64,000 nt of DNA from NCBI GenBank assembly GCA_964385615.1, contig CAYLPP010000011.1, forward strand, positions 19,508 through 83,507. The letters are read 5' to 3'. Below the pieces are notes generated by a model, which saw nothing but the letters and a program-made list of their open reading frames with translations, ran no database searches and had not been told where the DNA came from. Shown here piece by piece: positions 44,822 through 64,000 of this stretch (its first letter is position 1; every line of letters begins with the position of its first letter). This DNA is from an uncultured bacterium (GTDB lineage: Bacteria; Omnitrophota; Omnitrophia; Omnitrophales; Aquincolibacteriaceae). Position numbers and translations under genes: made by a program.

Positions 44822-44844
44822 CGGCTAGCAATAGATAGTTCGGA

Positions 44845-46754: not shown

Positions 46755-46756
46755 AT

Positions 46757-48993: not shown

Positions 48994-49726
48994 ACCGGAT
49001 TAAAAGACTGGGGCGGTTAGCATAAATCGAAACGCTTTGATCGATTATTTCCGCGTTGAGGTCCATTTTCTGTATCCATGCCTGAATCTGCTCGCGCGTA
49101 AATAAATGGGCTTTGAACTTTTTTGAAGAATTCCGGTAGCCATCGGCCCCAAAAAGCAGGCTCCAGGCGGTCTGAATGAATACCGTGAAATACTTTTCTT
49201 TTACGGCAAACGCGATGGAATCCATGACATCACGAAAAAATCCGGCTGCATTTCTTTTCATCGGCAAATCCGCAATCAGCATCCGGGCTCCGGGCAAAGC
49301 GGACTGGCGGGCAGAACGGATTAAAGCCTCCACATCTTCCAGCGTTTCATAATATTGAACCACGCTGACGCAAAGAAACACTGAGAAGCGCCCTAAACCG
49401 CTGAGGTCTGTGTAATTCCGGCTTAAAAGCGAAGTCCGGACGTTCGTCAAGGCTGAACACCTTGAAGCGCAAAGAGAAACCAGGTTTTCCGAAGTATCCG
49501 CGGCACAGATTCCTGAAACAAGGGGGGCAAGCAACTGCTCCAAATGACCGGGACCGCAGCCGATGTTCAGGACAGAATCGGTTTTTAAAAATCTAACGAC
49601 GGGTTCCGCTCGGCGTAAAAAAATCTCCGCGTTTTTCTCCCAGATTTTATTCCCGGTCCAGAAACGGTCGCGATTCCAATAATCGATCCAGGAATTGCGG
49701 GAGGTATCCGGCGAAGCTCCCGTCAT
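48986..49726 (-). CDS. Class I SAM-dependent methyltransferase
   Basis: 246 aa; motif I VLNIGCGPGHL. Overlaps the neighbouring genes at both ends (operon). Confidence 0.55.
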   Translation of the reverse strand: MTGASPDTSRNSWIDYWNRDRFWTGNKIWEKNAEIFLRRAEPVVRFLKTDSVLNIGCGPGHLEQLLAPLVSGICAADTSENLVSLCASRCSALTNVRTSLLSRNYTDLSGLGRFSVFLCVSVVQYYETLEDVEALIRSARQSALPGARMLIADLPMKRNAAGFFRDVMDSIAFAVKEKYFTVFIQTAWSLLFGADGYRNSSKKFKAHLFTREQIQAWIQKMDLNAEIIDQSVSIYANRPSLLIRFD

Positions 49727-51111: not shown

Positions 51112-51439
51112 ATGCATACCCGATTTTAGATGATTAACTCTAAAAAACAAAGCAGGAATCAGAATACGGAAGGAAGCGGGCTTTTGATTTAATCTTACAG
51201 AAATGGCTGCCCGACCGCCACTCCCAGACGACCTACTTTCAGCATTGAGATACCAATTCTGCTGTATCGCATTCGTAAGGGTGAATGGAAGATTAAGAGC
51301 GCCGGAAGCGAAGATCAAGCGAAACAATACAAAGAACGTAAGATTGTGTCAAAAACTGTCCGAGCGCCCTATCCCTCATGGCAGGAGGAAATGCTACCAA
51401 AAAGGATTCCCTGAGTCCAAACTTTTAAAATTAAACCCG

Positions 51440-51468
51440 AAGTGTAGAGGCGAAGGGTCTACACTTGC
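51440..51468 (-). terminator. Putative intrinsic terminator (perfect 9-bp stem AAGTGTAGA/TCTACACTT, 9-nt loop, U-rich tail on the minus-strand transcript)
   Basis: Seen directly in the sequence ~45 nt downstream of the yhcG-like stop on the minus strand. It coincides with the shift to AT-richer DNA. Confidence 0.4.
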
Positions 51469-51513
51469 TCCTTCATTAAATACTTTTCGCAATGATAAAG
51501 GGCATGAATAAAC

Positions 51514-52659
51514 TTACTCTCGTTTAGAATGTTCTAATCGTTGCTGTGTCCGTTTAAGTTCTTCAGCTAATTTATGTTCATCGGGTAGTGCTGTCCGATA
51601 CTCAGCCGCAAGGATCTTGTTAGGCAATCCTGCCAAAGCATATTTTGCGACTGCTTCGTTTTTCTCTGCGCAAAGAATCAAACCTACGGGCGGATTTTCT
51701 TCTGGGTGAGCCCAATGTTCACGTGCGTAATTCAAATAGAGATGCATCTGCCCAGCATCGGCATGCGTGAATTTACCCATCTTCAAGTCGATCAGAACAA
51801 GACACCGCAAAACCCGATGGTAGAATACAAGATCAACGCGATACCATTCATTTCCAACACGAAGCCGTTTCTGCCGGGCCACGAAAGTAAAATCTCCGCC
51901 AAGCTCCAGAAGAAAAGTTTCGAGATGCCGAATCAAAGCTTCTTCCAAATCGCTTTCCGAATATTCATCTTTAAGATCCAGAAACTCCAAAACATAAGGA
52001 TCTTTAATTTCTTCTTCCGCTGTCATCCGATCCGTGGCCTTCTTGACGGCACCCTTTTTAAGCATGGCAGCTTTATCACGTGAAAGAGCCACACGCTCAT
52101 AAAATTGAGACCCGATTTGACGGTCAAGCTGACGAACTGACCATCCACCGCGCAATGCTTCTGCCTCATAAAATTTACGAGCATGTTCACTTTTTACAGA
52201 AAGCAACCGAGCATAATGGGACCAGGAAAGAGGAAAACCGTTAGCTAAAGCTTCCACGTCGAATTTCCTCGACACTGTCGAGGATTTCTTGGATGTCAGA
52301 CTTAATTCCCTCGACATCGTTGAGGGAATTGAAGCATTCCGGTGCTGCAAGTAAAAGATACGAAAACGTTCTAAATTAGGCACCGCAAACCCACGGCCGA
52401 TTTTTCGCGTGAGATCCTGAGACAAACGCTTTAACAGTTCTTCCCCATATTCAGCTCTAGCTTTTCCGCCCTGATCATATTCCACAATCCGGCGACCGAC
52501 TTCCCAATAAGTAGCTGTCAATATGGCGTTAACAGCTCTCGCAGCCTGGCTCCGAGCTTGATGAAGAAGGCTCTGAATCCCAGAGACAAAGCTAGCATAG
52601 TTTTGATCTTTTGAAATTGCAGGGTCTAATTTCTTCATAGAATTTTCTAATTTTAACAT
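51514..52659 (-). CDS. YhcG/DUF1016-family protein with C-terminal PD-(D/E)XK nuclease-like domain
   Basis: 381 aa. N-terminal DUF1016 helical region (YWEVGRRIVEYDQGG..AEYGE.LLK.LS.DL). C-terminal ...VDLVFYHRVLRCLVLIDLKMGKFTHADAGQMHLYLNY block typical of the YhcG nuclease-like core. Confidence 0.7.
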   Translation of the reverse strand: MLKLENSMKKLDPAISKDQNYASFVSGIQSLLHQARSQAARAVNAILTATYWEVGRRIVEYDQGGKARAEYGEELLKRLSQDLTRKIGRGFAVPNLERFRIFYLQHRNASIPSTMSRELSLTSKKSSTVSRKFDVEALANGFPLSWSHYARLLSVKSEHARKFYEAEALRGGWSVRQLDRQIGSQFYERVALSRDKAAMLKKGAVKKATDRMTAEEEIKDPYVLEFLDLKDEYSESDLEEALIRHLETFLLELGGDFTFVARQKRLRVGNEWYRVDLVFYHRVLRCLVLIDLKMGKFTHADAGQMHLYLNYAREHWAHPEENPPVGLILCAEKNEAVAKYALAGLPNKILAAEYRTALPDEHKLAEELKRTQQRLEHSKRE

Positions 52660-52721
52660 AATTCCTCCGAGGCTACTTTGGATTTTTCTTAGTTAAGAAC
52701 TCGCACAAGTAGTGCGAGTTT

Positions 52722-54419
52722 TCATGTCCCGTCCTCACGCGGTTTCAAGTCTTCGATAATGTCCAACGCGCTTACATCATAATCGGGCAATACGCCTTTG
52801 CTCCCTGTTGCAAGTTTCCGAAGATTAAGCATATCTGCCGGTTTAAACCGCCGCTGATACGGCTCGTATTCCATTGCCCCTTTTGTCCAAGGCGGAATAT
52901 GGAACCAAGAAAAGTTTGCCTCATAGGGGTAATCACCAAAACGGAAAAGACCCAAAGCCTCCTGCGGCCGAAGTTCATTAGCCACTAATTCGGCAGCGCG
53001 GAATGCCTCTTCATTGATAATCAATTGGAAATCATTACTGTTTTTCAATTGCTCCATTTCCTTTTTAACTTCTTTCATAAAGGGAGATCGCCGCCGAAGT
53101 ACCTTTTCGCTCGCAGAGCTGGAAAGACAAATGACGTTCCATCGAGAAGGCGTGTAGGAATAACACGGCTGCGCTGAAAAAACTCGCAGCACAGAGTTTA
53201 CGTTAAAATCATCAAGGGAATACTTGTCTGCCCACCTCTCCGGATAGAGCAAATAAATAAAAGGGCTGCTTGAACGGCCATAGCTACAAATTTCTTTCTT
53301 CAAATGCCAGAGCAAAAAATCCGTCAAAGGATTTTTCTTAGGCTCAAGTTCCAAATAAAGATGTTTTTTAGACTTCAGGATATCCGGAAGATTCAGAGGA
53401 AAAGCGCTTACAAAGAGCTCTTGATCCAGTCTCAGATTTTTACCAAAACTGATTAATTTTAATTTGAGGGCCCGGCGGTGTTTCGCTAAGGATTCAAACT
53501 CCCGAATATACCTATGAATAAACCTGCTCTCATGAATCGAGAAGGCTATATTTTTCTTTTCCAGAAGTGCAACCAAATCATCGATCCCGAATGGTTTACC
53601 TAAACTCTTTAAAGACTGGATAAGCCATCCTAATATCACTCCTTCTTTACTGAAATCTCGAAGCTCTAACCAAGATTCCAAAAAACGGACAATATCATTT
53701 TCATCCGTTCCCCAAAACGGGGAATAACTGGCTGAGAGAGCTTTATTGTTAGAGGAGTAATAGAAAAAAGAACGAATTTCCTCTTGCTTTCGTTCCCTTA
53801 AAACCATAGTCACTTCTTCCAGTAAATCTTTTTCTTCATCAGGAGCAAGAATAATAATCGTTTTCCCTCTCTGGGCATCGGCTTCCAGAAAACGCATCAT
53901 AATGTTTCGCATCAACGGACCTTCGCCAATGATTTCCACCGGTAATTCTTCCGCATAGTTTTTAGTCTGCATTGAGTTGCCTGTAATAAGATTTAACCCC
54001 AGGCATTCGGCATCAAAATTTTGATCCATGCTTTGTTTTGCCGTCATCGTTATTCTGCTTTTCTTTTTTATGGCATAAAAAGAAATACCCGAGTAAATCA
54101 ATAAAAGGTGTGCCTCGAACCGGAAAAAGAAAATGAGAATCCCACGCCAGCCGAAGATTTTCAATACCCGATCAACTTCACATATGAGAAATGGCCCATT
54201 GCACGAGGATGAATAGTATGTCCACAAACTAAGAGCCCAATCTGCAAAGAACGGCGTAATAATTATCCCATAATAGACATAACTATTTAACCCCGCTTCA
54301 AATGCCTGATGCGCCACCAAAAATCGAGCGGCTTTGTAAGGCCAAACAAAGAACCACTCGTAAAAAGAAACGCCGATATCCCTGAAAGGACGAAATGACC
54401 CACCTTGGCCGTTGCTCAT
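52722..54419 (-). CDS. Hypothetical protein, N-terminal membrane segments plus a large cytoplasmic domain
   Basis: 565 aa; hydrophobic helices in the first ~120 aa, no canonical Walker A. 4-nt overlap with the upstream wHTH gene (translational coupling). Confidence 0.45.
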   Translation of the reverse strand: MSNGQGGSFRPFRDIGVSFYEWFFVWPYKAARFLVAHQAFEAGLNSYVYYGIIITPFFADWALSLWTYYSSSCNGPFLICEVDRVLKIFGWRGILIFFFRFEAHLLLIYSGISFYAIKKKSRITMTAKQSMDQNFDAECLGLNLITGNSMQTKNYAEELPVEIIGEGPLMRNIMMRFLEADAQRGKTIIILAPDEEKDLLEEVTMVLRERKQEEIRSFFYYSSNNKALSASYSPFWGTDENDIVRFLESWLELRDFSKEGVILGWLIQSLKSLGKPFGIDDLVALLEKKNIAFSIHESRFIHRYIREFESLAKHRRALKLKLISFGKNLRLDQELFVSAFPLNLPDILKSKKHLYLELEPKKNPLTDFLLWHLKKEICSYGRSSSPFIYLLYPERWADKYSLDDFNVNSVLRVFSAQPCYSYTPSRWNVICLSSSASEKVLRRRSPFMKEVKKEMEQLKNSNDFQLIINEEAFRAAELVANELRPQEALGLFRFGDYPYEANFSWFHIPPWTKGAMEYEPYQRRFKPADMLNLRKLATGSKGVLPDYDVSALDIIEDLKPREDGT

Positions 54420-55183
54420 CTTTTGAGTACCGCCTTGATTTTAAATTCCCGTTCCGGGTGGGTAGCCTTAAAAACGGTCTCCGCTTGGAGCTTGATAAAG
54501 TCCTCGTAAAGGGCAAAGCAATAAACCTTACGGCTGTACTCTTCCGTTAATTTCATAATCTTCTCCATTAATGCAAGACTTCCGCAAAGATAAAAAATGT
54601 AATGAGTTTTCGGGTCATCTGCATAGACCTGAAAAATCTTGCGGTAGGTCTCCGACTTCTTGGGGTGTAGCTCCAACTCAACGGCAATCCCTCTTCCGTT
54701 TCTTGTAAAAAAACCGTCCGGAACTTTCCTTTCTCCCTGTGTTCCCATCCTCAGCATTTTTTCGCTTTTCCAGTCTTTGAAAAACCCCAGCGTTTTGAAA
54801 AGGAACATTGCTTCCGCCATCTTAAAATCGTGCTCGTAGGTCGCAAGCTCAATAAAATTTTGTGGTGCCGGTAAACCAGAATTTCCTGCTCCCACCAGAT
54901 AACCCACCCTTCTTAGAGCCTCTACACCTTTGCCCGACAGCAGATAACTTTCAGGCTGCCCCACCAGAATCTGGACACCTTTCAGATAACCGAATTTCTT
55001 TAACTTTCGAAGCCTAACCGCCGCATAGCTTTCATTGCCGTTAAAAATCCATTTAATCGCAAGATCCCTTTTCAAAAATTTTTGTATCAGAATTATCTTA
55101 AACAACAAAAGATCTCTTTCCCCGATTTCAACATATTGCCAATTTTGCTTCTTACCTTTTTTAGTTAGAAGTGTAGATTCCAT
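54416..55183 (-). CDS. Winged-helix DNA-binding protein, replication-relaxation-like family (full length)
   Basis: 255 aa. N-terminal wHTH (GERDLLLFKIILIQKFLKRDLAIKWIF...AAVRLRKLKKFGYL) paralogous to the ORF at 55686-55979. C-terminal VPDGFF...IAVELELHPKK block. Confidence 0.4.
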   Translation of the reverse strand: MESTLLTKKGKKQNWQYVEIGERDLLLFKIILIQKFLKRDLAIKWIFNGNESYAAVRLRKLKKFGYLKGVQILVGQPESYLLSGKGVEALRRVGYLVGAGNSGLPAPQNFIELATYEHDFKMAEAMFLFKTLGFFKDWKSEKMLRMGTQGERKVPDGFFTRNGRGIAVELELHPKKSETYRKIFQVYADDPKTHYIFYLCGSLALMEKIMKLTEEYSRKVYCFALYEDFIKLQAETVFKATHPEREFKIKAVLKR

Positions 55184-55685
55184 TAGTTATCTCTTCTCTT
55201 CTTTCGCGCTATCACAAACTCCACCGAGTGAAGCCACCGAAGACCACCATCTCCTCGTACCATTAAGGGAGAGGGTGGTCTTCGGGAACTGCGGCCAAAA
55301 GCCGCAGTGGCGGAACGAGGTGGGTAAATGAGATAGCGCGAATTTCCATCTTTTCGGTATATACGAGGGCCTCCGCATATACCTTGGCAATGCTTGGACA
55401 TGCGAAACAAACTCAATTTCGACGCTCTTTCCTTTAAAAAATATTTATTTTTTTTAAAAGCAAAAAAATAAAAATTCTTTCTGAGGGGTAGAGTTTGTTT
55501 TGTCATTTTAAGCAGCATCCTTTATTTGACCTGGGCATAAAAGGGCTTCCTCTTTTTGCTTCTTGAGAAGCCCCCGTTTTTCAGCAAGTCTCAGGACTCC
55601 CAAAGCTAGAAGTTCACATGCCTGATCAATTCTTTCTTCTTCGCTGAGATGCGCAAAAACCCGGGAAGCCGGACTTCGGAGATTT

Positions 55686-55979
55686 TCATTTTTTAGATTG
55701 AGCATTGGGCTCTACCCCCGTGGTAGATTTTTTCGCCAATACCTCTTTGGCTTTCTCAGTCAGATAAAGAAGCTTTGGATTTCCATGTTCCAAAAATCCA
55801 GTATCAACAAGTCGCCGAAGACGCTGAAAAGCGGCATGAGCTTTTTGGGATTTCTCATTCCAGAAATGCCTGGAAAGGTCCGCCGAAGTCTTGGCTCCAT
55901 CCGAACGGATCAGCCTAAAAATCTCAAAGTCACGATCATTCAACTGAATGGGGTATTTACCCCGAAAGTTGTCGGTCAT
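55686..55979 (-). CDS. Winged-helix DNA-binding protein, N-terminal-domain-only paralogue of the 54416-55183 product
   Basis: Start at MTDNFRGKYPIQLNDRDFEIFRLIRSDGAKTSADLSRHFW...AFQRLRRLVDTGFL, same wHTH pattern as its neighbour. ~98 aa; could be a standalone regulator or a truncated duplicate. Confidence 0.35.
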   Translation of the reverse strand: MTDNFRGKYPIQLNDRDFEIFRLIRSDGAKTSADLSRHFWNEKSQKAHAAFQRLRRLVDTGFLEHGNPKLLYLTEKAKEVLAKKSTTGVEPNAQSKK

Positions 55980-56804
55980 CGTGTAGTACCTCCTAAAATA
56001 GAAATACCTGCGAATGGACAGAGTCCACCCGTCAGGTTTTTCCCATTTTTTATCTAGGCAGGGAGAGCCTTTCACAAGTGTGGGTGTCCTGTCCCACGGG
56101 ACAGCCGGTTTTGGAACCGGACTACGACTTACCCTCTCTCACACGGACTCTCTGAGAACGCTTTCACGGAAGGAACTCTCTAGCGTTCTGGTAAGGTCTT
56201 TCTAAAATACAGCCTTTAACCGCATCTCCTATGTTTTCTTGAAAGTTCCCAAACAAGAACTTCCAAACGAAACACAGACAAATCACGCGGTGCCAATTTT
56301 GACGGCAATCCGAGTCTAAATATTCAAAGCTTCCAAGTCAGTCGGACATGAAATCTCATATTTATCCCCTCATAGTATGGGGAGATTATGCCCTGCTTGC
56401 TTCTGCTCCAAAATAAATTAGCTTTGATCGCGCTTGCTATTCATTTTCGAATGTTTTTTCAGTCAAATTTTTCAAAACCTGCCGAGCAGGTTAAGTTTTG
56501 ACCCATAAAGTTATTTCTTGAGAGAATAAACTATCAAAATCCGAAAAAGCATTATTCGAGAAAAATTTTGTCAACCATCAGGAGAAGAAGAGCGGAAATT
56601 GGGGCTTGTGGTGAGAAAACTACGACAGGAGAAGCTTCCGTGACACTCCACAAGATTTAGCTTATAGCTAAGAGTTTCGGAATGACTGAATAGAACTTCT
56701 CAAAGAAGTCAAAGCTAAAACAATTTAGTCGCTTACCTCTTCTTCTCTTAAAATTTAACACTCCCAATCATTCTCACTCTTATAGAAAATAGGCGCCGCT
56801 AAAT

Positions 56805-58175
56805 TTATGCGCGAATGCAACTTATCCGATTAACATCAAAATTCTCTCCCAATGAAATCTTATTCTTTACGGTTACTCTGTATTTCTGAGAAAATTCTAT
56901 TAATGAATTGATCCCGGCGGACGAATAAAATATAAGCACAAAGATCACGGGCGTTTCGAGGCGCGTGCTTGTCCAATAAAACAGCGAATAAAGTGCGGCA
57001 AAGTACAAGAGAAGCCCCGTCATCGGAAGATCCTCCCGGAAAAGAAATGACCTTCGTAAAAACATCCCCGCCAGGGCCGTGATTAGAATGAACCCATAAG
57101 CCGCCGCATGAATCATCACCCAATATGTCTGGCGCCAAGGCTGGTTTAAATTATTAGGCACAATGCGGCCTTCTGTGCCATTGATTTCTACATGACCGTC
57201 CGCAAGCGAATAAAAAGGGACCACCCAAGGACAAAAAAAGTAAATTAAATTTTCAATCTTAAGCTGCAAAATACGGCCGGGGTTCTTCTTTACAAAATCC
57301 CAAGCTTTATCTGCAAAAAACCGGTCAATTTCTTTTGGACTTTTGTGCTCATAATCCGGCATTTCCTTTCTTGCCAATTCCTGAGCATAAGGGACCAATA
57401 AATCAAGGTGATATTCCGGCCTGAGCAAATCCGTAAATTCGCAATTGGCTATAAAAAGATTGATTCCCGATCGCGTCGGCAATATGGCCTGATCAACGCG
57501 ATAATTGTGAATCATCATCGGAGTCATGATTATCAAAACAGTACCGGTAAAAAGAAGCCATTGTCTGTAATATTTTTTCACTAGCAGAAACAACGACGCA
57601 ATACCGACAAAAGGAAGCAACATGCTGCGCGTAATTAGGATAAACCCAAAAGCAACTCCAGATAGGAGTGCATATCGCGGATTGGCCGCTTTCCGGATGG
57701 TATAGATCGCCCCGATAAGAAGCGGGACCAAAAGAAACGTGACTCCAATTTTCAAAGACCGCCGGATCGCATACGGATAGAAAGCGTAAAGGACAGAAGC
57801 TATCCAGGCGGTGCGAGGGTTCGAGGTGAAAGATAAAACAAGTTTATAGAAGAGAACATTTCCCAATGAATACACAGCAATCTGAATAAAAAGCACAAAC
57901 CAGTAATTGTCGGCGCTGATAAATCTTAAAAATGCCAAAAGAATAGGATAAAAAGGCTCGACATAGGTGGTCGCCTTTCCATCAAGAGAGAAGCCGGCTC
58001 CGTGGAGGATGGAGGTTGCAATATGCCAGTAAGTTCTTGGCATATCATCAATGATGAGGCCTTTGTATTTCCAGTGAAGAAATAAATAAAAAGCCCTGGG
58101 CAGAAATGCCAATAAAAAGACTTTTAAGAATGTTTTCATTTTCATTCCCGGTTCCAAAGAATTAATTTCTTTCAA
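56805..58175 (-). CDS. PMT_2 / GT39-GT83-like polytopic glycosyltransferase (protein O-mannosyltransferase / ArnT-like)
   Basis: 456 aa with ~10 TM helices, an N-terminal loop with an acidic DD motif (LIIDDMPRTYWH) and an aromatic-rich first periplasmic loop, characteristic of polyprenol-phosphate-sugar-dependent GT-C enzymes. Confidence 0.6.
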   Translation of the reverse strand: MKEINSLEPGMKMKTFLKVFLLAFLPRAFYLFLHWKYKGLIIDDMPRTYWHIATSILHGAGFSLDGKATTYVEPFYPILLAFLRFISADNYWFVLFIQIAVYSLGNVLFYKLVLSFTSNPRTAWIASVLYAFYPYAIRRSLKIGVTFLLVPLLIGAIYTIRKAANPRYALLSGVAFGFILITRSMLLPFVGIASLFLLVKKYYRQWLLFTGTVLIIMTPMMIHNYRVDQAILPTRSGINLFIANCEFTDLLRPEYHLDLLVPYAQELARKEMPDYEHKSPKEIDRFFADKAWDFVKKNPGRILQLKIENLIYFFCPWVVPFYSLADGHVEINGTEGRIVPNNLNQPWRQTYWVMIHAAAYGFILITALAGMFLRRSFLFREDLPMTGLLLYFAALYSLFYWTSTRLETPVIFVLIFYSSAGINSLIEFSQKYRVTVKNKISLGENFDVNRISCIRA

Positions 58176-58539
58176 GAACAGCTCTTAGATCTGTTGTTGT
58201 GAAGGGCTTCATCAAACAATCGACAGCACCTTCTCTAAGCGCAGCATCCAATCGCTCTTGAGACGCATTACCCGTCATGACAATAACCGTAATTTCAGGT
58301 TGAAGTTTTTTAAGTTCCCGAAGCGTATCCAAGCCGTCCATTCCCGGCATTTGCATATCGGTAAAAACACCATCAAAAGTCATTTGCTTAGCCAGTTCAA
58401 CGGCTTTTTCCCCATTTTCTGCCGTATAGATTTCGTGGATCTCCTCAATGATAGTCCGAAGCATTTCGGTTAAGACGCCTCGGACCGCTTCGTCATCATC
58501 CACAATCAATAGCTTTTTAATAGATTGATCGTTTGACAT
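58162..58539 (-). CDS. Single-domain response regulator (CheY-like receiver)
   Basis: KKLLIVDDDEAVRGVL (acidic pocket), phospho-acceptor Asp context GVFTDMQMPGMDG, and T/K residues (VIVMTG...K). 14-nt overlap with the GT gene start. Confidence 0.7.
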   Translation of the reverse strand: MSNDQSIKKLLIVDDDEAVRGVLTEMLRTIIEEIHEIYTAENGEKAVELAKQMTFDGVFTDMQMPGMDGLDTLRELKKLQPEITVIVMTGNASQERLDAALREGAVDCLMKPFTTTDLRAVLERN

Positions 58540-58668
58540 ATCGCACATTTTATCGTTTTTGCACAATTTTAAGGGCGGTATAATCATCGGCTCGGCTTGA
58601 AGGAATCTTAATGGACAGGCCAGTTGGGTGGTGGCAGTTATGTGGTGACATTTCTAGAATTCAACCAC

Positions 58669-58884
58669 ATGGCAAAAGAAATCCGGTTCAAATTTGGCAA
58701 GAAGCTGCGACAGCTGCGGAAAAAGCACAAATGGACTCAAGAGCAGTTGGCGGAATACGCCGATATCGCTTACAAGCATGTGCAAAGACTCGAAGGCAAG
58801 CACCCCTCCCCTGTAAAAATTGATACCGTTGAAAAACTGGCCAAGGCTTTCAAAATTAAGATCTCAAAGCTAATGGATATTTAA
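58669..58884 (+). CDS. XRE-family helix-turn-helix transcriptional regulator
   Basis: FGKKLRQLRKKHKWTQEQLAEYADIAYKHVQRLE is a classic Cro/C1-type HTH. Start placed at MAKEIRF. Divergent from the response-regulator/GT operon. Confidence 0.7.
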   Translation: MAKEIRFKFGKKLRQLRKKHKWTQEQLAEYADIAYKHVQRLEGKHPSPVKIDTVEKLAKAFKIKISKLMDI

Positions 58885-59105
58885 ATTTGAGATTGTCCTG
58901 CGTGGCATGGCTTTTCAAAGTAACAAAAACATTAAACTCTTTCACAATATCCAGTCGTATTGCATTTTCCAAATGACCTATTCCCCTATTCCAAAAAAAA
59001 GAGTCTGCACTCCACAAATTAGCCCCAGTTTTAATACCGTCCGCAAGTTCAATTTCATAGAAGAGCGAAGCCGCCTAGACAAAGCGGCTTCGCTCTTGAC
59101 TAATC

Positions 59106-59486
59106 TTATTTCATTTTTGACATTTTTTTTGCAGTTCGATCTGCTCTTTTCGTGAGACCTGCCGCAAGCTCCGGCTTCGACGCTTGCAAAGCAGCCGCCG
59201 AATCCCTCAGGAGCTTCAAATGCGCGGCTCGGCGAGCCTGTCTTTCCGGCGTATTCTTTTCTTTCGGCTCCTCTTTTCCTTCTTTTTCATTGGCTTCTTC
59301 ATTTGCAAACGCAGTCAGATCAGCCGAAAGAGACGGCTGAGAAGATTGAAGGGCTGCCGCCGAAGACTGTAAAAGTTTTACAAACGCAGCATCATCATGT
59401 CCTTCATGCGCGAATAACACTGATGACGATGAAAAACTTAAACCCAACACAAGAAAACCCAACATCAAACTTTGTGACAATTTCAT
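59106..59486 (-). CDS. Hypothetical periplasmic protein with signal peptide and an internal tandem duplication
   Basis: Signal peptide MKLSQSLMLGFLVLGLSFSSSSVLFA. Two ~25-aa repeats (LLQSSAAALQSSQPSLSADLTAFA / LLRDSAAALQASKPELAAGLTKRA). Lys/Glu-rich linker. Confidence 0.4.
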   Translation of the reverse strand: MKLSQSLMLGFLVLGLSFSSSSVLFAHEGHDDAAFVKLLQSSAAALQSSQPSLSADLTAFANEEANEKEGKEEPKEKNTPERQARRAAHLKLLRDSAAALQASKPELAAGLTKRADRTAKKMSKMK

Positions 59487-59572
59487 GACTCCTCCATTGG
59501 TTGATTTATAATGTGAAAAATTATCTTTGATTTTGATCGCGGCAAACGCCTCCCTGGCTTGTTAAATTAATC

Positions 59573-60517
59573 TTATACTGGCATAAGGGCCTCATGCTTT
59601 TCGATTTCAATCAATGCTCGTTTGATTCTTTGAGTTTCGTCCGAAAATTGCGCTGCAATAATCCGGGCATTCTTTGCTCTCTTTAAATCCCAAACCAACC
59701 CAAGCTTAGCCAGCCCTGCAATAATCCATTTGCTAGGGTCCCAATGATACCAGCGCACTCCATTGCGGTAATCATACGGAAATCGATGGTGAAAATTGTG
59801 ATACCCCTCGCCAAAAGTAATCAGGGCAGCCAACCAATGGTCCTTTGCGGAAGAATTTCTGTCATAAGTAGCCTGCCCAAACATATGGCAAAATGAATTG
59901 ATACAAAAAGTCGCATGATAAACCAACGTAATTCTTGTGCAAACGCTAAATAAAAGCGCTCCCAACCAATGACCGGTTAGCCCACCTATCGCGATTGGCA
60001 GAAGAACTCCACTCATAACAGCCCAAAGACGGTAATGCTGATGTTGATGCATGATAAGGCGGCTCTTCTGAAGATCCTTTACGTTCTCGTAGCAGGTTTT
60101 ATGCTTCCAAAAAATCAGCCAGCCTATATGGGCGTAGAAAAATCCCCTTTTGATATTGTAGGGATCAAGGTCCGTATCGACATAGCGATGATGATCCCTA
60201 TGTTGAGATGCCCATTTAAGCGCCGACTGTTCAAAGGCCGCAGCACCGAAAAACAGAATAATAAAACGAACTAACGGCTTTGCCTTAAAAGTCGCATGGG
60301 CAAATAAGCGATGGTAGCCCATCGTGATGCTTAATGGAGTGATAATCATGTAAAACACAAAAAGAAGAACTTCCGGCATCGAAAGGCCAAAGCGGTGGAT
60401 ATAAAGGGGCGTACCAATCACACCGAGAATAGTAGTGATCGTAAAAAAAGCAATATTGTTCCACATCATCTTTTTCACAGGGGCTGATCTCTCAGAAATC
60501 ATGGCGGCACCTTTCAT
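59573..60517 (-). CDS. Acyl-CoA (stearoyl-CoA-type) delta-9 fatty-acid desaturase
   Basis: Three His boxes: HRLFAH, HRDHHRY, HNFHHRFP. Four TM helices. Confidence 0.8.
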   Translation of the reverse strand: MKGAAMISERSAPVKKMMWNNIAFFTITTILGVIGTPLYIHRFGLSMPEVLLFVFYMIITPLSITMGYHRLFAHATFKAKPLVRFIILFFGAAAFEQSALKWASQHRDHHRYVDTDLDPYNIKRGFFYAHIGWLIFWKHKTCYENVKDLQKSRLIMHQHQHYRLWAVMSGVLLPIAIGGLTGHWLGALLFSVCTRITLVYHATFCINSFCHMFGQATYDRNSSAKDHWLAALITFGEGYHNFHHRFPYDYRNGVRWYHWDPSKWIIAGLAKLGLVWDLKRAKNARIIAAQFSDETQRIKRALIEIEKHEALMPV

Positions 60518-60522
60518 CTTTT

Positions 60523-61206
60523 TTAAATTTCAAGCTGCTCAAAGAAACTTTGAACCTCCAGGAGAGATTCAAAATTTATGCAGGATCGCCCCCGCTCTTT
60601 AAAATGCTCGGAAAGTCTCCCCTTAGCAAAAACGATATCAGCATGCTCAGCTGGGCAAATATCAGAGAGGCCATCGCCAACGTAGACCGTAATTTTATCC
60701 GCTGCGTTAAGCACATGTCTTTTTTTACAATGAGCGCAACGCGAGCAGTCCGCACTTAAAAATGGGAACGAAGGGATCAACTGATCTCCGCGGAATTCCA
60801 GTTCGTTAGCATAGACCGGGACGTTATCAATTCCATGATGATTCAAAATCTCGCGAATAAAAAAAGAAAAACTGTCACTGACGATAAGGGTTTTTATCCC
60901 CCAATCTTTAAAAAAGATTAGCAGCTTCTTAAAGTGCGGGTCGAGCTTGATCTCGGACAGATATTCGGACAGAGTTTGTTGAGTAACTCGAAGGGACTGA
61001 AGCTGTCCCTCTAAGCATTGTTTAGATCCGATCCTGCCGGCCTGCCAATCATTTTCAAATTTTATCCAGTCGGTATTGATTGAAAACTTCTGAATGATTG
61101 AATCAAGAACATCAAATTCTGTAAGGGTATTATCAAAATCAAAGAATACAACATGCTCCCGCTTTTCCGGAAAATTATCCAGAGATCGCCTTAATGGCGC
61201 GTTCAT
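60523..61206 (-). CDS. HAD-superfamily phosphatase (phosphoserine-phosphatase / MtnX-like subfamily)
   Basis: Motif I FFDFDNTLT (DxDxT), motif III K, motif IV GDGLSD. Confidence 0.65.
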   Translation of the reverse strand: MNAPLRRSLDNFPEKREHVVFFDFDNTLTEFDVLDSIIQKFSINTDWIKFENDWQAGRIGSKQCLEGQLQSLRVTQQTLSEYLSEIKLDPHFKKLLIFFKDWGIKTLIVSDSFSFFIREILNHHGIDNVPVYANELEFRGDQLIPSFPFLSADCSRCAHCKKRHVLNAADKITVYVGDGLSDICPAEHADIVFAKGRLSEHFKERGRSCINFESLLEVQSFFEQLEI

Positions 61207-62111
61207 GTTTTTATCTCGCTTTGCAGCACGCCTTCTTCTACGGGAACTCGGCTAAAAAAATCAGCCACCTTCTCAGCAACAGTTTCCCGCTCCTGATCCG
61301 CCGTAATTACATGATAGGAGTCATGGAGCAGAAAAATCTCTTTCATTTCTGAAGCAATCTGGTCATGGATAAACTGAGAATTCTTAATGCTAGTCATATC
61401 GTCTTCGGCGGCCTGAATAAGCTGGACAGGGAGATGAACATTTGACAGCTTGGAACACACACGTTTAATTAACTGATTCATTTCAGCAAATAGCGCCACG
61501 GGGAAATAGGGATACCCGTATTTTTCAACATCCCTCAAATCATCCAGTCCCGCGGAACTGTAATACTCATGAATCCGTTTTCGAACGGCTAAATTTTTAA
61601 TCCCATATGGAGATTCTTCTTTAAAATAAATGAAGTACTTCAAAGGGGTACAAGAAGCTAACGGCAGTAAATGCCTGCTCCAGGGAACATTCCAACCATC
61701 ATAGAAAAGGGTTGGCGAAAGGCAACTCACGCCTGAAATTTTATTCGGAAATTCTTCTGCGAGCAGTAACGCAAGAAGAGCCCCCATAGAAAGGCCGCCA
61801 ACAAAAACCGGGCCACTATGCTGATTATCTAAATTTAAAAAAGTAGTGCGGACTGAATCGTAGAAATCCTGCCACTTGGCCTTCTTCAAAATCTCCAAAG
61901 GCTCCCCATGATAAGCCAATCGGGGACAGTAAACCGAATAGCCCTGACGATGCAGATAATGGGCTATGAATTTCATTTCATTTGGCGTCCCCGTTAGTCC
62001 ATGAATTAAAATGACGGTTCCACGCGTGGCACCATTGAGTGAAAAACCTTCCGGCTTTGAAACGGATTTCGCAGGTTTCTTGAAAGAAAAATGAAATTCG
62101 ACAGGCATCAA
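61203..62111 (-). CDS. Alpha/beta-hydrolase (esterase/lipase-like)
   Basis: 302 aa with HGLTG oxyanion region and nucleophile elbow GLSMG. 4-nt overlaps at both ends. Confidence 0.65.
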   Translation of the reverse strand: MMPVEFHFSFKKPAKSVSKPEGFSLNGATRGTVILIHGLTGTPNEMKFIAHYLHRQGYSVYCPRLAYHGEPLEILKKAKWQDFYDSVRTTFLNLDNQHSGPVFVGGLSMGALLALLLAEEFPNKISGVSCLSPTLFYDGWNVPWSRHLLPLASCTPLKYFIYFKEESPYGIKNLAVRKRIHEYYSSAGLDDLRDVEKYGYPYFPVALFAEMNQLIKRVCSKLSNVHLPVQLIQAAEDDMTSIKNSQFIHDQIASEMKEIFLLHDSYHVITADQERETVAEKVADFFSRVPVEEGVLQSEIKT

Positions 62112-63532
62112 ATAGTCCTTTTTGTTTTCTTAATAATTTGATCAAGGAGATCATGTGCGAGATCCATTTCCTCATAACTAATTTCCAGAGACGGGGCAAG
62201 ATTGACCACATTTTTATAATATCCGCCCACATTCAATACAAGACCGAGCTTGCGGCCATGACTGTTCAAGTCTCCCTTAAGTCCTGTCTGGAACATCCGG
62301 TCAAGCATCAACCGATTAGGCGTAACGCCGTCAGCTTCGCAAATTTCCATTCGCAGCGCCAAACCAAGTCCATCCACATTTCCAATCTCCGGATGAACTT
62401 TCTGGAGGTCTTTTAAAAGCCCCAGAAAATAAGCACCTTTTTCTGTAACCATTTTCCCGTAGTCTTTTTCTGAAAATATCTTCATCACTTCAAGACCTGC
62501 AGCAGTACCGATGGTATTTGAAGAATAGGTTGAATGCGTAGAGCCGGGTCCAAACTTTTCCGGACTTATCAGTTCTTCGCGTGCCCAAATTCCGGAAAGC
62601 GGATTAAGTCCATTAGTAAGCGACTTCCCGAAAATAATAATGTCGGGCTTTACGCCGGAGTGCTCAATCGACCACAATTTACCCGTCCGATAAAGTCCCA
62701 TTTGCACTTCATCAGCTACAACCAAAATTCCGTGATCCTGACACGCTTTAGCGATACGCTGCAAATATCCAGCAGGCGGAATGATATAACCGCCGGTCCC
62801 CTGGACTGGTTCAATAAAAAAAGCACCGAATTCTGAATGCCCCGTTTTCGGGTTCCAAAAACCAGAAAACTCGTGTTTGAATTTTCGCTCAAACTGCTGG
62901 GCACAATAAAGCTCACAGCTCTCACGTTTTTTATCGTAAGGGCAACGAAAACAATACGGATAAGGCTCAAAATGAGCCCGTTCTGGAAACTCACCGAAAG
63001 GCTCACGGTAACGGTAAGAAGAAGTAATCGAGGAAGCTCCCAAAGTCCGGCCGTGATAGCCACCTTCAAAAGCAAGCATTCGCTGCCGCCCAGTATTTCT
63101 TCGCACAATTTTTAGAGCATCTTCCACAGCTTGGGCTCCACCAACATTAAAATGCACACGGCCTTTTAAACCAAAACGTTCCTCGATGCTTCTTCCTATA
63201 TGCGCCGCGAGTTCTATCTTTTCACGGTGAAGATATTGACTTGCCAGTTGGGGGAGTTTATCCATCTGCCTTTTAACAGCATCGCTAACCCGAGGATTGG
63301 CGTATCCAAGATTGGCCGTGGAATACCACATTTGCAAATCAAGGTAAGGTGTGTCCTCGGCATCATAAAGAAAACTCCCGCTGCATCGCTCAAAAATTTT
63401 AGGCACTGCGGCATAGTGAACCGTGTCTCCGTAAGAACAAAAGCGACTCTCTAAAGCAAGCAGCTCCGCCTCTTCATGAAAAATATCTTCGGATTTCGTC
63501 TCTTCATCTATTTTAAGAATATTTGGGTTCAA
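62108..63532 (-). CDS. Class-III (omega-type) PLP-dependent aminotransferase
   Basis: 474 aa; glycine-rich loop VGGAQAVEDALK; ADEVQMG; Schiff-base lysine context FGKSLTNG. Confidence 0.75.
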   Translation of the reverse strand: MNPNILKIDEETKSEDIFHEEAELLALESRFCSYGDTVHYAAVPKIFERCSGSFLYDAEDTPYLDLQMWYSTANLGYANPRVSDAVKRQMDKLPQLASQYLHREKIELAAHIGRSIEERFGLKGRVHFNVGGAQAVEDALKIVRRNTGRQRMLAFEGGYHGRTLGASSITSSYRYREPFGEFPERAHFEPYPYCFRCPYDKKRESCELYCAQQFERKFKHEFSGFWNPKTGHSEFGAFFIEPVQGTGGYIIPPAGYLQRIAKACQDHGILVVADEVQMGLYRTGKLWSIEHSGVKPDIIIFGKSLTNGLNPLSGIWAREELISPEKFGPGSTHSTYSSNTIGTAAGLEVMKIFSEKDYGKMVTEKGAYFLGLLKDLQKVHPEIGNVDGLGLALRMEICEADGVTPNRLMLDRMFQTGLKGDLNSHGRKLGLVLNVGGYYKNVVNLAPSLEISYEEMDLAHDLLDQIIKKTKRTI

Positions 63533-63550
63533 GATAATCTCCTTATCGTT

Positions 63551-64000
63551 CTAATTGAAATTTCTAACCATTTTCGGATTCATCCCTAATTTACTTCCAG
63601 ATTTAAGTTCTTTGTAACGCTCATATCCTTTCCAGCGGCGGTGCGTCCAAAGCCATTGCTCTGGGTAGGCCAAGATTTGCTTTTCGAGCAAATGATTGAG
63701 CTTGAGAGTTGTTTGCTCTTCCCAATTATCTTCATTCCCTTCGATAGAAACTTCCTCTTTAATTTGAATCTCATATTGTCCAAATCCCTTTCTCACACAA
63801 TAAGCCGGAATAAGCGCAGCTCCTGTCCGTTTTGCTAAACGCACAGGGATAGATGTTGTCGAGGTGGGCTCTCCAAAGAAATCCACCCAAATCCCGTCAC
63901 CACCTGCCCACTGGTCGATCAAGATAGCGACTAAATGATTCTTATGCAGCGCTGAAAGAATGGCCCGAATCGACTTTTTATTCTCAAGAGACTTGAGCCC
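63551..64000 (-). CDS. Lysophospholipid/lipid A acyltransferase (LpxL/HtrB-like LPLAT), N-terminus beyond window end
   Basis: The reading frame continues past 63922 to the window edge (..AILSALHKNHLVAILIDQWAGGDGIWVDFFG.., the substrate-pocket region of LPLATs). The HX4D motif is expected upstream, outside the window. Confidence 0.55.
   Translation of the reverse strand, partial: GLKSLENKKSIRAILSALHKNHLVAILIDQWAGGDGIWVDFFGEPTSTTSIPVRLAKRTGAALIPAYCVRKGFGQYEIQIKEEVSIEGNEDNWEEQTTLKLNHLLEKQILAYPEQWLWTHRRWKGYERYKELKSGSKLGMNPKMVRNFN

What the first reader, a model, noticed from the sequence alone, without database searches (positions are those of the whole stretch)
51400..64000. Abrupt shift to AT-richer DNA from ~51.4 kb onward, beginning at a terminator hairpin: candidate acquired island
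By eye the first 51 kb is GC-rich, with a GCG/CGC-rich codon style. From the perfect hairpin at 51440-51468 onward, runs of A/T become frequent (e.g. 55430-55480) and codon style changes. The first genes in the AT-rich part are the kind found in mobile or defence islands: a YhcG/DUF1016 PD-(D/E)XK nuclease, an uncharacterised membrane protein translationally coupled to a winged-helix replication-relaxation-like protein, and a second truncated paralogue. I saw no integrase, transposase or flanking direct repeats, so the mobilisation mechanism, if any, is not evident.
Basis: partly seen in the sequence, partly recalled or inferred. Interest (0 to 1): 0.55.

Follow-up and report, generated by a model that had tools for sequence, protein, structure and literature searches.

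The report
Genomic island end at tRNA-Gln site
The AT-rich DNA from 51.2 kb onward is one end of a foreign island that entered a tRNA-Gln site using a large serine recombinase whose own gene contains the attachment site, so integration detaches the last ~65 codons of that gene.

Summary
The GC shift is real and sharp: 51.2% before ~51.2 kb, 43.2% after. GC3 is 0.57 versus 0.43, and 1-kb GC windows do not overlap. The GC-rich side carries core genes (rpsA, trpS, scpAB), so the AT-rich side is the atypical one.

The boundary is not the hairpin. It is a 13-nt block at 51204-51216 (TGGCTGCCCGACC), the reverse complement of the 3' end of tRNA-Gln. Next to it lies a conserved ~265-nt unit. This unit is the detached C-terminal tail of a large serine recombinase (LSR) gene.

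In two complete related elements (L088, L094) the LSR body runs antisense into an intact tRNA-Gln at one end. The tail sits 10-12 kb away at the other end. Body and tail join in frame, and one database protein (P0160) carries them contiguously.

So 51.2 kb is an attR-type island junction. Inside it lies a conserved core module (small wHTH proteins, a wHTH+PD-(D/E)XK "replication-relaxation" protein, u565) with defence cargo (YhcG). Lipid-modification genes with identical composition follow. The recombinase body and tRNA-Gln must lie beyond 64 kb.

The island reading is supported and the mobilisation mechanism is identified. Whether the whole 12.8 kb is one element remains inferred.

The parts
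51204..51216 (-). att identity block GGTCGGGCAGCCA (minus-strand reading), the 3' end (acceptor stem + CCA) of tRNA-Gln. It is the island/chromosome junction (attR-type).
   Evidence: It is unique in the window and 100% identical to positions 62-74 of the L088 tRNA-Gln. The same block ends the recombinase body in L088 and L094 and starts every tail copy. Homology between all loci stops here.
51205..51414 (+). Detached 3' tail of a large-serine-recombinase ORF: GCPTATPRRPTFSIEIPILLYRIRKGEWKIKS...KRIP*. It has no start codon. The open frame begins after a TAA at 51190-51192.
   Evidence: There are 11 copies in related loci, with synonymous third-position changes, and all are cut at the same residue. 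P0160 carries the tail contiguous with the zinc-ribbon and coiled-coil part of a serine recombinase. The tail joins the L088 and L094 recombinase bodies in frame.
51440..51466 (.). Perfect 9-bp inverted repeat AAGTGTAGA-N9-TCTACACTT between the convergent recombinase tail and YhcG. It is a probable shared, weak terminator.
   Evidence: Sequence seen. Fold energy is -10.5 kcal/mol, z=-0.7. The scan does not call it a terminator. The CTACACT arm and hairpin are conserved in unit copies.
51514..52659 (-). YhcG/DUF1016 PD-(D/E)XK nuclease, the variable defence-type cargo gene in the slot next to the att end.
   Evidence: PF06250 2e-59 and PF17761 3e-40. PADLOC PDC-S02 2e-141. The slot holds AlbA_2/HATPase_c_4 in L083, L090 and L094, and AbiEi/AbiEii in L088.
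52722..54419 (-). u565, a 565-aa protein of unknown function belonging to the element core module. It overlaps u255 by ATGA.
   Evidence: Only two homologues in 5.8e9 proteins. Further copies exist in L085, L090, L092, L093 and L095. No Pfam, PHROG or PADLOC hit. The apparent Walker A is not conserved. The AF2 model is unusable, pLDDT 38.
54416..55183 (-). u255, a winged-helix + PD-(D/E)XK nuclease-fold protein ('replication-relaxation' family-like). It is the hallmark gene of the element family.
   Evidence: The family has 25 clusters. Five have precomputed PF13814, and one is named 'replication-relaxation family protein [Candidatus Omnitrophica bacterium]'. AF2 pLDDT is 87.7. Foldseek matches MarR/PadR/MecI winged helices plus Hjc, R.BspD6I, SfsA and Cdn1 nuclease domains. 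P155-D156...E169-x-E171...K175 is invariant.
55183..55401 (-). u72, a small conserved ORF upstream of u255.
   Evidence: tblastn gives 41-54% identity in L090, L092, L093 and L095 at the same position.
55508..55705 (-). u65, a small conserved ORF homologous to the 79-aa gene of L088.
   Evidence: tblastn with the L088 79-aa protein: 68% identity over 41 aa at 55583-55705. The gene is present in L085, L087, L090, L093, L094 and L095.
55686..55979 (-). u129s, a ~97-aa winged-helix protein (real start probably the ATG at 55979). It is the first gene of the core module.
   Evidence: 49-62% identity to 93-98-aa genes in L085, L087, L088, L090, L093, L094 and L095. Weak HTH_20/HTH_24 hits. Nucleotide similarity to relatives begins at ~55,946.
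56584..56728 (+). Pseudogene of an XRE/HTH_31 regulator, with a 76-nt internal deletion and a 1-nt indel. Homology to the L090 element ends ~8 nt after its stop codon, at ~56,735.
   Evidence: tblastn pieces are 82-95% identical to the L090 75-aa HTH_31 protein, in different frames. Nucleotide alignment.
56736..64000 (-). The rest of the AT-rich segment, inferred to be island cargo. It holds a 456-aa polytopic membrane protein, a response regulator, an XRE ORF (+), a 126-aa secreted-type protein, a fatty-acid desaturase, a HAD phosphatase, an alpha/beta hydrolase, a class-III aminotransferase and the C-terminal part of a lipid A-type acyltransferase.
   Evidence: Pfam results. GC is 0.433 versus 0.431 for the defined element. 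GC3 is 0.39-0.46. The tetranucleotide signature is the same as the element's. No tRNA-Gln or recombinase body occurs in the window.

Best explanation
The AT-rich segment is the attR-proximal part, at least 12.8 kb long, of an integrative genomic island inserted at the 3' end of a tRNA-Gln gene in a ~51% GC, probably Omnitrophota, chromosome. The donor pool has ~43-46% GC, like all related loci.

The integrase is a large serine recombinase (LSR) whose attP lies inside its own ORF, about 40-65 codons before the stop. In the circular form the ORF is intact. Recombination takes place within the block shared by attP and the tRNA-Gln 3' end (GGTCGGGCAGCCA). It leaves the LSR body at one end of the island, where it now reads antisense through a restored tRNA-Gln and acquires a different ~23-aa C-terminus. 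It leaves the original tail, with a 13-nt tRNA-Gln repeat, at the other end.

The window contains this tail end at 51204-51414. Behind it come, in order: a defence cargo slot (YhcG); the family's core module (u565, u255 wHTH+PD-(D/E)XK, u72, u65, u129s); a decayed regulatory gene (HTH_31 pseudogene, with the CI-like repressor lost); and metabolic cargo (a lipid-modification cluster).

Shown: the composition step, the att block, the coding nature and truncation of the tail, and the body/tail/tRNA geometry in two complete relatives. Inferred: that 56.7-64 kb belongs to the same island, and that the LSR body and tRNA-Gln lie beyond 64 kb. Speculative: any role of the tail swap in controlling recombination direction.
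For: Composition. Core genes on the GC-rich side.

Module and unit. The conserved module and its terminal unit occur in L082, L083, L085, L087, L088, L090, L092, L093 and L094; L095 carries the module but no unit. They lie in different chromosomal contexts. The unit is found only at these elements and not in ~1.3 Mb of other loci or elsewhere in the window. It codes for a peptide under purifying selection, but it lacks a start codon and is cut at one residue.

Recombinase link. P0160 joins this peptide to a serine-recombinase zinc-ribbon/coiled-coil region. The L088 LSR has Resolvase+Recombinase+Zn_ribbon_recom domains. Its body ends in AATGGCTGCCCGACC and then runs antisense through tRNA-Gln; the tail is 10.1 kb away, next to core genes. 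L094 repeats this geometry over 12.2 kb with a 72%-identical LSR. The joins are in frame. The 13-mer is unique in the window at 51204-51216.

Extent. Large family members exist: L093 exceeds 20.7 kb. L085 shows the same asymmetric GC pattern, 0.40-0.45 through and upstream of the module and 0.48-0.50 beyond the tail. GC is identical on both sides of 56,735.
Against: The far end is not in the window, so the size and unity of the island are unproven. Homology to the nearest element (L090) stops at 56,735, and the element shows decay there (HTH_31 pseudogene, no CI-like gene). A 5.5-kb remnant next to something else therefore remains possible. In L090 an aminotransferase-hydrolase-lipid A acyltransferase set lies outside the element, next to tRNA-Leu/PGM, which suggests such genes can be chromosomal in this lineage. 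No empty attB site or circular junction was observed. The source is a metagenomic contig, and coverage could not be checked.
Confidence: 0.66

Rival explanations
1. Only the ~5.5-kb element remnant (51,203-56,735) is the recombinase-borne insertion, and it has lost its recombinase/tRNA-Gln end by deletion. The 56.7-64 kb lipid-gene region is a separate entity, either an older island or resident low-GC DNA, that happens to adjoin it.
For: Homology with L090 ends at 56,735, immediately after a pseudogenised HTH_31, and the CI-like repressor seen in L085 and L090 is missing. An aminotransferase-hydrolase-acyltransferase set is chromosomal, next to tRNA-Leu/PGM, in L090. Tandem accretion of elements at this att site is documented in L092 and L087.
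Against: GC (0.431 vs 0.433), GC3 and tetranucleotide signature are indistinguishable across 56,735. No second tail unit or att block lies in 56.7-64 kb. Cargo upstream of the regulatory genes is variable and long in relatives (L085, L090, L093). Even under this rival, the 7.3 kb remains compositionally foreign to the host.
Confidence: 0.2
2. The contig is an assembly chimera. Two related organisms (51% and 43% GC) both carry such an element at the same locus, and the assembler crossed over in the conserved tail/att repeat.
For: The step sits exactly at a sequence that is 78-87% conserved between genomes and repeated within genomes. Related populations with such elements co-occur in one sample (L082 and L090 both come from JGI 3300027835). 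Relatives' contigs tend to break at the element.
Against: The junction has exactly the structure expected of a real attR: host flank, 13-nt tRNA block, tail. The GC-rich flank leads to 2-hydroxyacid dehydrogenase/tRNA-Leu/PGM, as do the flanks in L082, L083 and L090. L085 and L088 show comparable GC steps at their element ends. A chimera is not needed to explain anything seen.
Confidence: 0.08
3. This is native compositional heterogeneity, with no transfer: the low-GC block is an ordinary chromosomal region under a different mutational or selective regime.
For: GC3 already declines gradually along the left side, from 0.64 to 0.52. Many genes in 56.8-64 kb are ordinary metabolic genes.
Against: There is an abrupt GC3 drop of ~0.1 between adjacent genes at a recombination junction. 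Mobile-element core genes lie right at the boundary. The tetranucleotide signature differs.
Confidence: 0.04

Closest known systems
tRNA-gene-integrated genomic islands and integrative elements (classical attL/attR with a repeat of the tRNA 3' end)
   Same: Insertion is at the 3' end of a tRNA gene. The element restores the tRNA. A short direct repeat of the tRNA 3' end marks the distal junction. Composition deviates from the host. Cargo is defence, TA and metabolic genes. Elements accrete in tandem.
   Different: From my own knowledge, islands at tRNA genes are mostly described with tyrosine integrases; here the enzyme is a large serine recombinase. My literature searches found no description of a serine integrase with a tRNA target. 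This is absence in a limited library, not proof of novelty.
SSV-type 'suicidal' tyrosine integrases of archaea (attP inside the int ORF; PMC7253208, PMC8371274)
   Same: The attachment site lies within the integrase coding sequence and matches a tRNA gene. Integration splits the gene into a body and a detached part at opposite ends of the element. [quoted passage not shown]
   Different: The catalytic family differs (serine, not tyrosine) and so does the domain of life (bacterial). The split is near the 3' end, so only ~40-65 C-terminal residues are detached and all recognisable catalytic and DNA-binding domains stay on the body. The integrated gene is therefore probably not inactivated but tail-swapped. 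From my own memory, not checked here, Myxococcus phage Mx8 intP/intX is a similar tail-altering case for a tyrosine integrase.
Large serine integrases of phages and ICEs (phiC31, Bxb1, A118, SPbeta SprA, TndX)
   Same: The L088 and L094 enzymes have the Resolvase + Recombinase + Zn_ribbon_recom architecture with a coiled-coil. The gene sits at the element edge next to att.
   Different: In the characterised examples I know, attP is intergenic or beside the gene, and the targets are protein-coding genes or intergenic sites. Here attP is intragenic and the target is tRNA-Gln.
Replication-relaxation family (Pfam PF13814)
   Same: u255 homologues carry weak PF13814 hits and an NCBI name. u255 has a winged helix followed by a PD...ExE...K nuclease-like domain.
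   Different: The window protein itself does not reach any Pfam threshold. The function of the family is unknown, so the name explains little.
Integron gene cassettes / attC arrays
   Same: A repeated conserved unit follows successive cargo blocks in L092 and L087.
   Different: The unit is ~265 nt and protein-coding, being a recombinase tail. It is not a 57-141-nt imperfect palindrome. No IntI-type integrase is present. This option was rejected.

Membership tests
tRNA-integrated genomic island | Composition deviates from the host chromosome. | tested here: met
   GC 0.432 vs 0.512, GC3 0.43 vs 0.57, distinct tetranucleotide usage. Core genes lie on the GC-rich side.
tRNA-integrated genomic island | The junction carries a direct repeat of the 3' end of the target tRNA gene. 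| tested here: met
   The 13-nt block GGTCGGGCAGCCA at 51204-51216 is identical to the tRNA-Gln 3' end and unique in the window. The same block occurs at both ends of the L088 and L094 elements.
tRNA-integrated genomic island | An intact target tRNA gene and an integrase gene lie at the other end. | not testable with these tools
   Neither is in the window. The remainder of the 89-kb source contig could not be fetched. The feature is met in relatives L088 and L094.
tRNA-integrated genomic island | Presence/absence polymorphism: an empty site in relatives. | tested here: inconclusive
   Every relative recovered through the element genes carries an element. Cargo and flanks differ. No empty tRNA-Gln site was seen, because searches were seeded with element proteins.
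Large serine recombinase integrase | Resolvase catalytic domain + Recombinase domain + zinc ribbon with coiled-coil. | tested here: inconclusive
   The window holds only the C-terminal tail, which has no Pfam hit. The body in L088 has PF00239+PF07508+PF13408. The L094 body is 72% identical to it. P0160 links the zinc-ribbon/coiled-coil region to the tail.
SSV-type split ('suicidal') integrase | attP lies inside the integrase ORF, and integration separates the gene into two parts at the element ends. | tested here: met
   Body end and tail end share AATGGCTGCCCGACC and join in frame in L088 and L094. The contiguous form is seen in P0160.
SSV-type split ('suicidal') integrase | Tyrosine recombinase catalytic fold; archaeal host; both halves inactive. 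| tested here: not met
   The enzyme is a serine recombinase. Relatives are annotated as bacterial (Omnitrophica). Only the last ~40-65 residues are detached.
Replic_Relax (PF13814) | Significant match to the Pfam model. | tested here: not met
   No hit for u255 even at E<=10. Five homologues have precomputed hits, flagged weak where shown. The fold is compatible with the family.
YhcG/DUF1016 nuclease (PADLOC candidate system PDC-S02) | DUF1016_N + YhcG_C PD-(D/E)XK domains. | tested here: met
   PF17761 3e-40 and PF06250 2e-59, both above the cut-offs. PDC-S02 2e-141.
Structured ncRNA (first hypothesis for the conserved unit) | An Rfam match, or covariation supporting a fold. | tested here: not met
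   No Rfam hit at E<=1. The RNAalifold covariation term is -0.25 kcal/mol on 4 sequences. The substitution pattern is that of a coding frame on the opposite strand.

The most novel reading that the evidence does not exclude
This is a bacterial family of large serine integrases that target a tRNA gene and carry attP inside their own ORF. The enzyme made from the circular element has the conserved ~40-65-aa tail. The enzyme made from the integrated element has an unrelated ~23-aa end encoded by antisense tRNA-Gln. The tail swap acts as a built-in switch of activity or directionality: integration-competent only when episomal, or excision-competent only with the altered end. In that case the state of the DNA would itself encode which reaction the recombinase can perform. 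The tail's conservation under purifying selection across at least 11 integrated copies is what suggests it matters.
Probability: 0.2. Interest if true: 0.72.

Novelty: new variant of a known kind. Interest (0 to 1): 0.5.

Why it matters
As a compositional island the finding is ordinary, but it resolves into a precisely delimited junction with an unusual integration system. A large serine recombinase inserts at a tRNA gene, and its attachment site sits within its own coding sequence. The precedent I could find for intragenic attP is the archaeal SSV-type tyrosine integrases. Serine integrases are the main tools for unidirectional DNA insertion. A natural family that targets a conserved tRNA 3' end, and whose C-terminus changes with integration state, would therefore interest researchers studying directionality control and tool builders. 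The work also defines a family of Omnitrophota integrative elements: a core module of three small proteins, including a winged-helix one, plus a wHTH-PD-(D/E)XK protein, with swappable integrases and defence/TA cargo. It further warns that 'conserved synteny' next to a tRNA hotspot can reflect repeated site-specific insertion rather than vertical inheritance.

Tried and rejected
1. E. coli origin: no match.

2. Fetching the rest of the source contig by exact-protein look-up failed for four proteins. The source genome is not among the GTDB representatives.

3. 'The GC-rich side is the foreign part' was rejected because it carries rpsA, trpS, scpAB and DAHP synthase.

4. 'Conserved synteny refutes the island' was considered. 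It was abandoned when the module turned up in other contexts and the att logic explained the shared locus.

5. u565 as a P-loop coupling protein: the Walker-A-like motif is not conserved.

6. The conserved unit as a ncRNA: no Rfam hit and no convincing covariation.

7. The unit as a transposon end or attC-like cassette site: no partner inverted or direct repeat, and the unit proved to be coding.

8. The + strand ORF 51203-51511 (MAARPPLPDD...): wrong frame, because its substitutions are non-synonymous.

9. The unit in viral contigs: no exact match.

10. A Pfam match for the tail peptide: none.

12. A CI-like repressor, serine recombinase or tRNA-Gln remnant in the window: only the HTH_31 pseudogene was found.

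13. Taxonomy of the host could not be established directly. 'Omnitrophota' rests on the annotation of one u255 homologue, on the closest gene-order matches of the aminotransferase cassette, and on the giant ORF typical of the phylum.

Full report
OBSERVATION. The compositional shift is real. GC is 0.512 for 1-51,400 and 0.432 for 51,401-64,000. One-kb windows give 0.512+-0.019 (minimum 0.470) on the left and 0.432+-0.017 (maximum 0.461) on the right, so the two sets do not overlap. A two-segment model places the change point at 51,090-51,130 and gains 133 nats over a single segment. Third-codon-position GC is 0.50-0.70 in all 34 genes on the left and 0.38-0.46 in all 12 genes on the right (Mann-Whitney p=3e-7). 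Tetranucleotide usage, corrected for base composition, separates the same two domains.

However, it is energetically unremarkable (-10.5 kcal/mol, z=-0.7) and the terminator scan does not call it. The shift also begins some 240-350 nt to its left.

WHICH SIDE IS FOREIGN. The AT-rich side carries ordinary-looking genes: a class-III aminotransferase, an alpha/beta hydrolase, a HAD phosphatase, a fatty-acid desaturase, a response regulator and a lipid A-type acyltransferase. I therefore first asked whether the GC-rich side might be the insertion. It is not. It carries ribosomal protein S1, TrpS, ScpA/ScpB, DAHP synthase and sulfite reductase at 50-55% GC. About 51% GC is thus the composition of this chromosome's core genes, and the right-hand block is the outlier.

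RELATIVES AND AN APPARENT REFUTATION. The 565-aa protein next to YhcG has only two homologues among 5.8 billion proteins. Their contigs (L081/L082 and L083) show a u255-like gene, a u565-like gene and YhcG (or an AlbA_2/HATPase gene). These are followed by tRNA-Leu, PGM/PMM, ManC, a methyltransferase, TrpS and ScpA/B, or by the 2-hydroxyacid dehydrogenase. All of these are the genes on the window's GC-rich side. Identities look vertical: TrpS 65%, u255 43-46%, YhcG 41%, u565 36%. The relatives have a uniform GC of about 0.45.

Further relatives changed the picture. The module u129-u255-u565-YhcG occurs in L085 between a CI/LexA-like repressor with polyamine genes and a two-component system. 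In L087 it lies among a reverse transcriptase, MqsRA and Fic in a 55-60% GC background. It occurs again in L088, L090, L091/92, L093, L094 and L095 with yet other flanks and cargo: AbiE, type I R-M, AlbA_2-HATPase, CHAT and HigB-like TA. The copies are mosaic. L090 is 92% identical to L085 over the repressor region and 84% identical to L083 over u565-AlbA_2.

THE BOUNDARY ELEMENT. L085 and L082 are 93% identical over 4 kb, and the identity stops abruptly ~350 nt downstream of YhcG. At that point all loci share a ~265-nt unit that is 78-87% identical at the DNA level, although the neighbouring proteins are only 36-50% identical. The window's copy is at 51,197-51,473, at the GC change point. A profile search finds the unit only at the end of module-bearing loci and always in the same orientation. 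It occurs three times in L092 and twice in L087. It is absent from the rest of the window and from ~1.3 Mb of unrelated loci.

It is not a known RNA (Rfam E<=1: nothing), and four-sequence covariation was negligible. Read on the opposite strand, one frame gives a conserved peptide, (N)G(C/S)P..TP.RP.F.(I/V)E(I/F).I.LYR..KG.WK..., with synonymous third-position changes between divergent copies. Almost no copy has a start codon, and all are cut at the same residue, where homology between loci ends.

An exhaustive HMMER search of 1.84 billion representatives found only 11 relatives. One of them, P0160, is the C-terminal part of a large serine recombinase (zinc-ribbon YFYYRC...C, then coiled-coil). 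It continues in frame into ...FDKERNGSPKHSPQRPFFEVEFPIALYRVLKGAWKI.... The unit is therefore the detached 3' tail of a large-serine-recombinase gene.

THE MECHANISM, SEEN IN TWO COMPLETE RELATIVES. In L088 a 617-aa Resolvase+Recombinase+Zn_ribbon_recom protein lies 5 kb upstream of the u129/u255 pair. Its ORF ends ...SNGCPT and then runs antisense through an intact tRNA-Gln gene. The shared sequence AATGGCTGCCCGACC is the reverse complement of the tRNA-Gln 3' end, GGTCGGGCAGCCA. The tail unit lies 10.1 kb away, next to spoVG-ispE-hisG core genes. Joining body and tail across the shared block is in frame. L094 repeats this geometry with a 72%-identical recombinase and a tail 12.2 kb away.

The attP therefore lies inside the recombinase ORF and matches the 3' end of tRNA-Gln. 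Integration restores the tRNA, gives the recombinase body a new ~23-aa end encoded by antisense tRNA, and leaves the original tail plus a 13-nt tRNA repeat at the other junction.

In the window the 13-mer TGGCTGCCCGACC occurs once, at 51204-51216. It is 100% identical to tRNA-Gln positions 62-74 and is followed directly by the tail ORF (51205-51414). The GC step thus sits on an attR-type junction.

This also explains the shared synteny. Different lineages carry elements at the same tRNA-Gln site, which lies close to tRNA-Leu/PGM/TrpS in this group. Between the tail and tRNA-Leu the content varies: a TA pair in L082; small genes and the dehydrogenase in L083; RR/HK and the aminotransferase set in L090; and a 17.7-kb sugar-modification cluster in the window.

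ANATOMY IN THE WINDOW. All element genes are on the minus strand except the tail and the HTH_31 pseudogene (both on +). The parts run as follows:
- att block, 51204-51216
- recombinase tail, 51205-51414 (+)
- inverted repeat, 51440-51466
- YhcG, 51514-52659 (PF06250/PF17761; PADLOC PDC-S02 2e-141)
- u565, 52722-54419
- u255, 54416-55183, which overlaps u565 by ATGA
- u72, 55183-55401
- u65, 55508-55705
- u129s, 55686-55979
- an HTH_31 pseudogene, 56584-56728 (+), with a 76-nt deletion and an indel

The pseudogene pieces are 82-95% identical to the intact L090 gene, and homology to L090 ends ~8 nt after the pseudogene's stop, at ~56,735. The CI-like repressor present in L085 and L090 is absent.

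u255 models confidently (pLDDT 87.7). It is a winged helix plus a PD-(D/E)XK nuclease fold, matching Hjc, R.BspD6I, SfsA and Cdn1, with P155-D156...E169-x-E171...K175 invariant. Five homologues carry PF13814 hits and one carries the NCBI name 'replication-relaxation family protein [Candidatus Omnitrophica bacterium]', but the window protein itself has no Pfam hit.

The 'truncated paralogue' is a distinct, conserved small winged-helix gene. Its similarity to u255 is only 28% over 76 residues (E=0.002).

HOW MUCH IS ISLAND. By homology, 51,203-56,735 (~5.5 kb) is element DNA. Several observations argue that the remaining 7.3 kb is cargo of the same island.
- GC is 0.433 versus 0.431 for the element. 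GC3 and tetranucleotide usage are also the same.
- The window holds no second tail unit, att block, tRNA-Gln or recombinase remnant, so the body end must lie beyond 64,000.
- Family members can be large: in L093 the tail is 10 kb downstream of u255 and no recombinase lies within 10 kb upstream.
- Cargo upstream of the regulatory genes is long and variable: polyamine genes in L085, Kdp/permease in L090, type I R-M in L093.
- L085 shows the same asymmetric profile, 0.40-0.45 through and upstream of the module and 0.48-0.50 beyond the tail.

Two observations argue against it. L090 has an aminotransferase-hydrolase-acyltransferase set outside its element, next to tRNA-Leu/PGM. The window's element is also visibly decaying at 56.6-56.7 kb. 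I give 0.66 to a single island of at least 12.8 kb and 0.20 to a 5.5-kb remnant adjoining another low-GC block.

An assembly chimera at the conserved repeat gets 0.08. The unit is the kind of repeat that misleads assemblers, and related populations co-occur (L082 and L090 come from one sample). However, the junction has the exact attR structure, and its GC-rich flank is the expected host flank.

COMPARISON WITH WHAT IS KNOWN. Islands at tRNA genes with a repeat of the tRNA 3' end are textbook. Two things differ here: the enzyme family (serine, not tyrosine) and the position of attP inside the recombinase ORF. The precedent I could find for intragenic attP is the SSV-type 'suicidal' tyrosine integrases of archaea, which also target tRNA genes (PMC7253208; review PMC8371274). 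In that family the gene is split into two inactive parts. Here only the last ~40-65 residues are detached and all recognised domains stay on the body.

My searches of the held literature found no serine integrase described with a tRNA target or an intragenic attP. The sources checked include a large LSR discovery study and an integrase/att bioprospecting paper. This is absence of evidence in a limited library. I file the finding as a new variant of a known kind.

WHAT REMAINS UNKNOWN. Several points are open:
- the far end of the island;
- the host taxonomy, where Omnitrophota is inferred;
- the roles of u565, u255 and the small proteins;
- whether the tail swap has any regulatory meaning;
- whether the element is still active.

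The tail ORF is intact in the window and 83% identical to another database copy, but a regulatory gene is dead.

Noticed in passing
window 33482-51117: A 17.7-kb sugar-modification cluster holds three NAD-dependent epimerases/dehydratases, a C-methyltransferase, another methyltransferase, an FAD amine oxidase and a 3779-aa ORF with a single methyltransferase domain. It lies between the att junction and the 2-hydroxyacid dehydrogenase/tRNA-Leu. It is absent from that position in L082, L083 and L090. Its GC3 (0.50-0.55) is lower than that of the core genes further left (0.57-0.70). It may be an older insertion at the same hotspot. Very long proteins are reported as typical of Omnitrophota (preprint 10.64898/2026.06.07.730766).
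   Followed up: partly
window 60523-63532 (and L001-L080): The class-III aminotransferase, alpha/beta hydrolase and HAD phosphatase form a three-gene cassette found in many phyla, with aminotransferase identity of 61-73%. The same gene order and the best hydrolase/HAD identities (60-63% and 51-55%) occur in the Omnitrophota MAGs L009, L010 and L013. Its function is unknown, and its context here suggests lipid or amino-lipid modification.
   Followed up: partly
L092 3873-4095, 9436-9668, 10598-10878; L087 13258-13351, 15275-15363: Several recombinase-tail units lie in direct orientation, each after a different cargo block. This suggests tandem accretion of elements, or their remnants, at one att site.
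   Followed up: partly
L095 8967-14560: The same core module (u129-like, small ORFs, a frameshifted u255, a u565-like gene) is carried with a tyrosine integrase next to tRNA-Lys instead of the serine recombinase at tRNA-Gln. The integration module has been exchanged between elements.
   Followed up: no
L088 3052-3133: In the integrated state the serine recombinase ORF overlaps the whole tRNA-Gln gene in antisense. Its last ~23 residues (WTRTKNLASKGRCVTITPSGNI) are a translation of antisense tRNA. L094 shows the same sequence up to its contig end.
   Followed up: partly
L085 13690-13728: A degenerate copy of the 3' half of tRNA-Gln (…CCTTTGGCGGAGAATCCAGGTCGGGCAGCCA) lies 0.8 kb beyond the tail unit. 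It may be a relic of an earlier integration.
   Followed up: no
L081, L082, L083 (contig ends): Three relatives' contigs end inside or just upstream of the u255-like gene. The break points differ, which suggests assembly fragmentation caused by strain-variable or repeated element DNA.
   Followed up: no
Its RNA fold is -15.6 kcal/mol with z=-2.0. The Rfam 'miRNA' hits there are chance matches (E~0.9).
   Followed up: partly
window 1-51000: GC3 of genes declines gradually toward the island: about 0.64 at 0-10 kb, 0.60 at 10-20 kb, 0.57 at 20-32 kb and 0.52 at 33-51 kb. Cumulative GC skew is monotonic, and all large genes but two are on the minus strand.
   Followed up: no
window 58624-58884 (+): An intact XRE-type HTH ORF lies on the opposite strand between the response regulator and the 126-aa secreted-type protein. 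It is 30% identical to the L090 HTH_31 protein.
   Followed up: no
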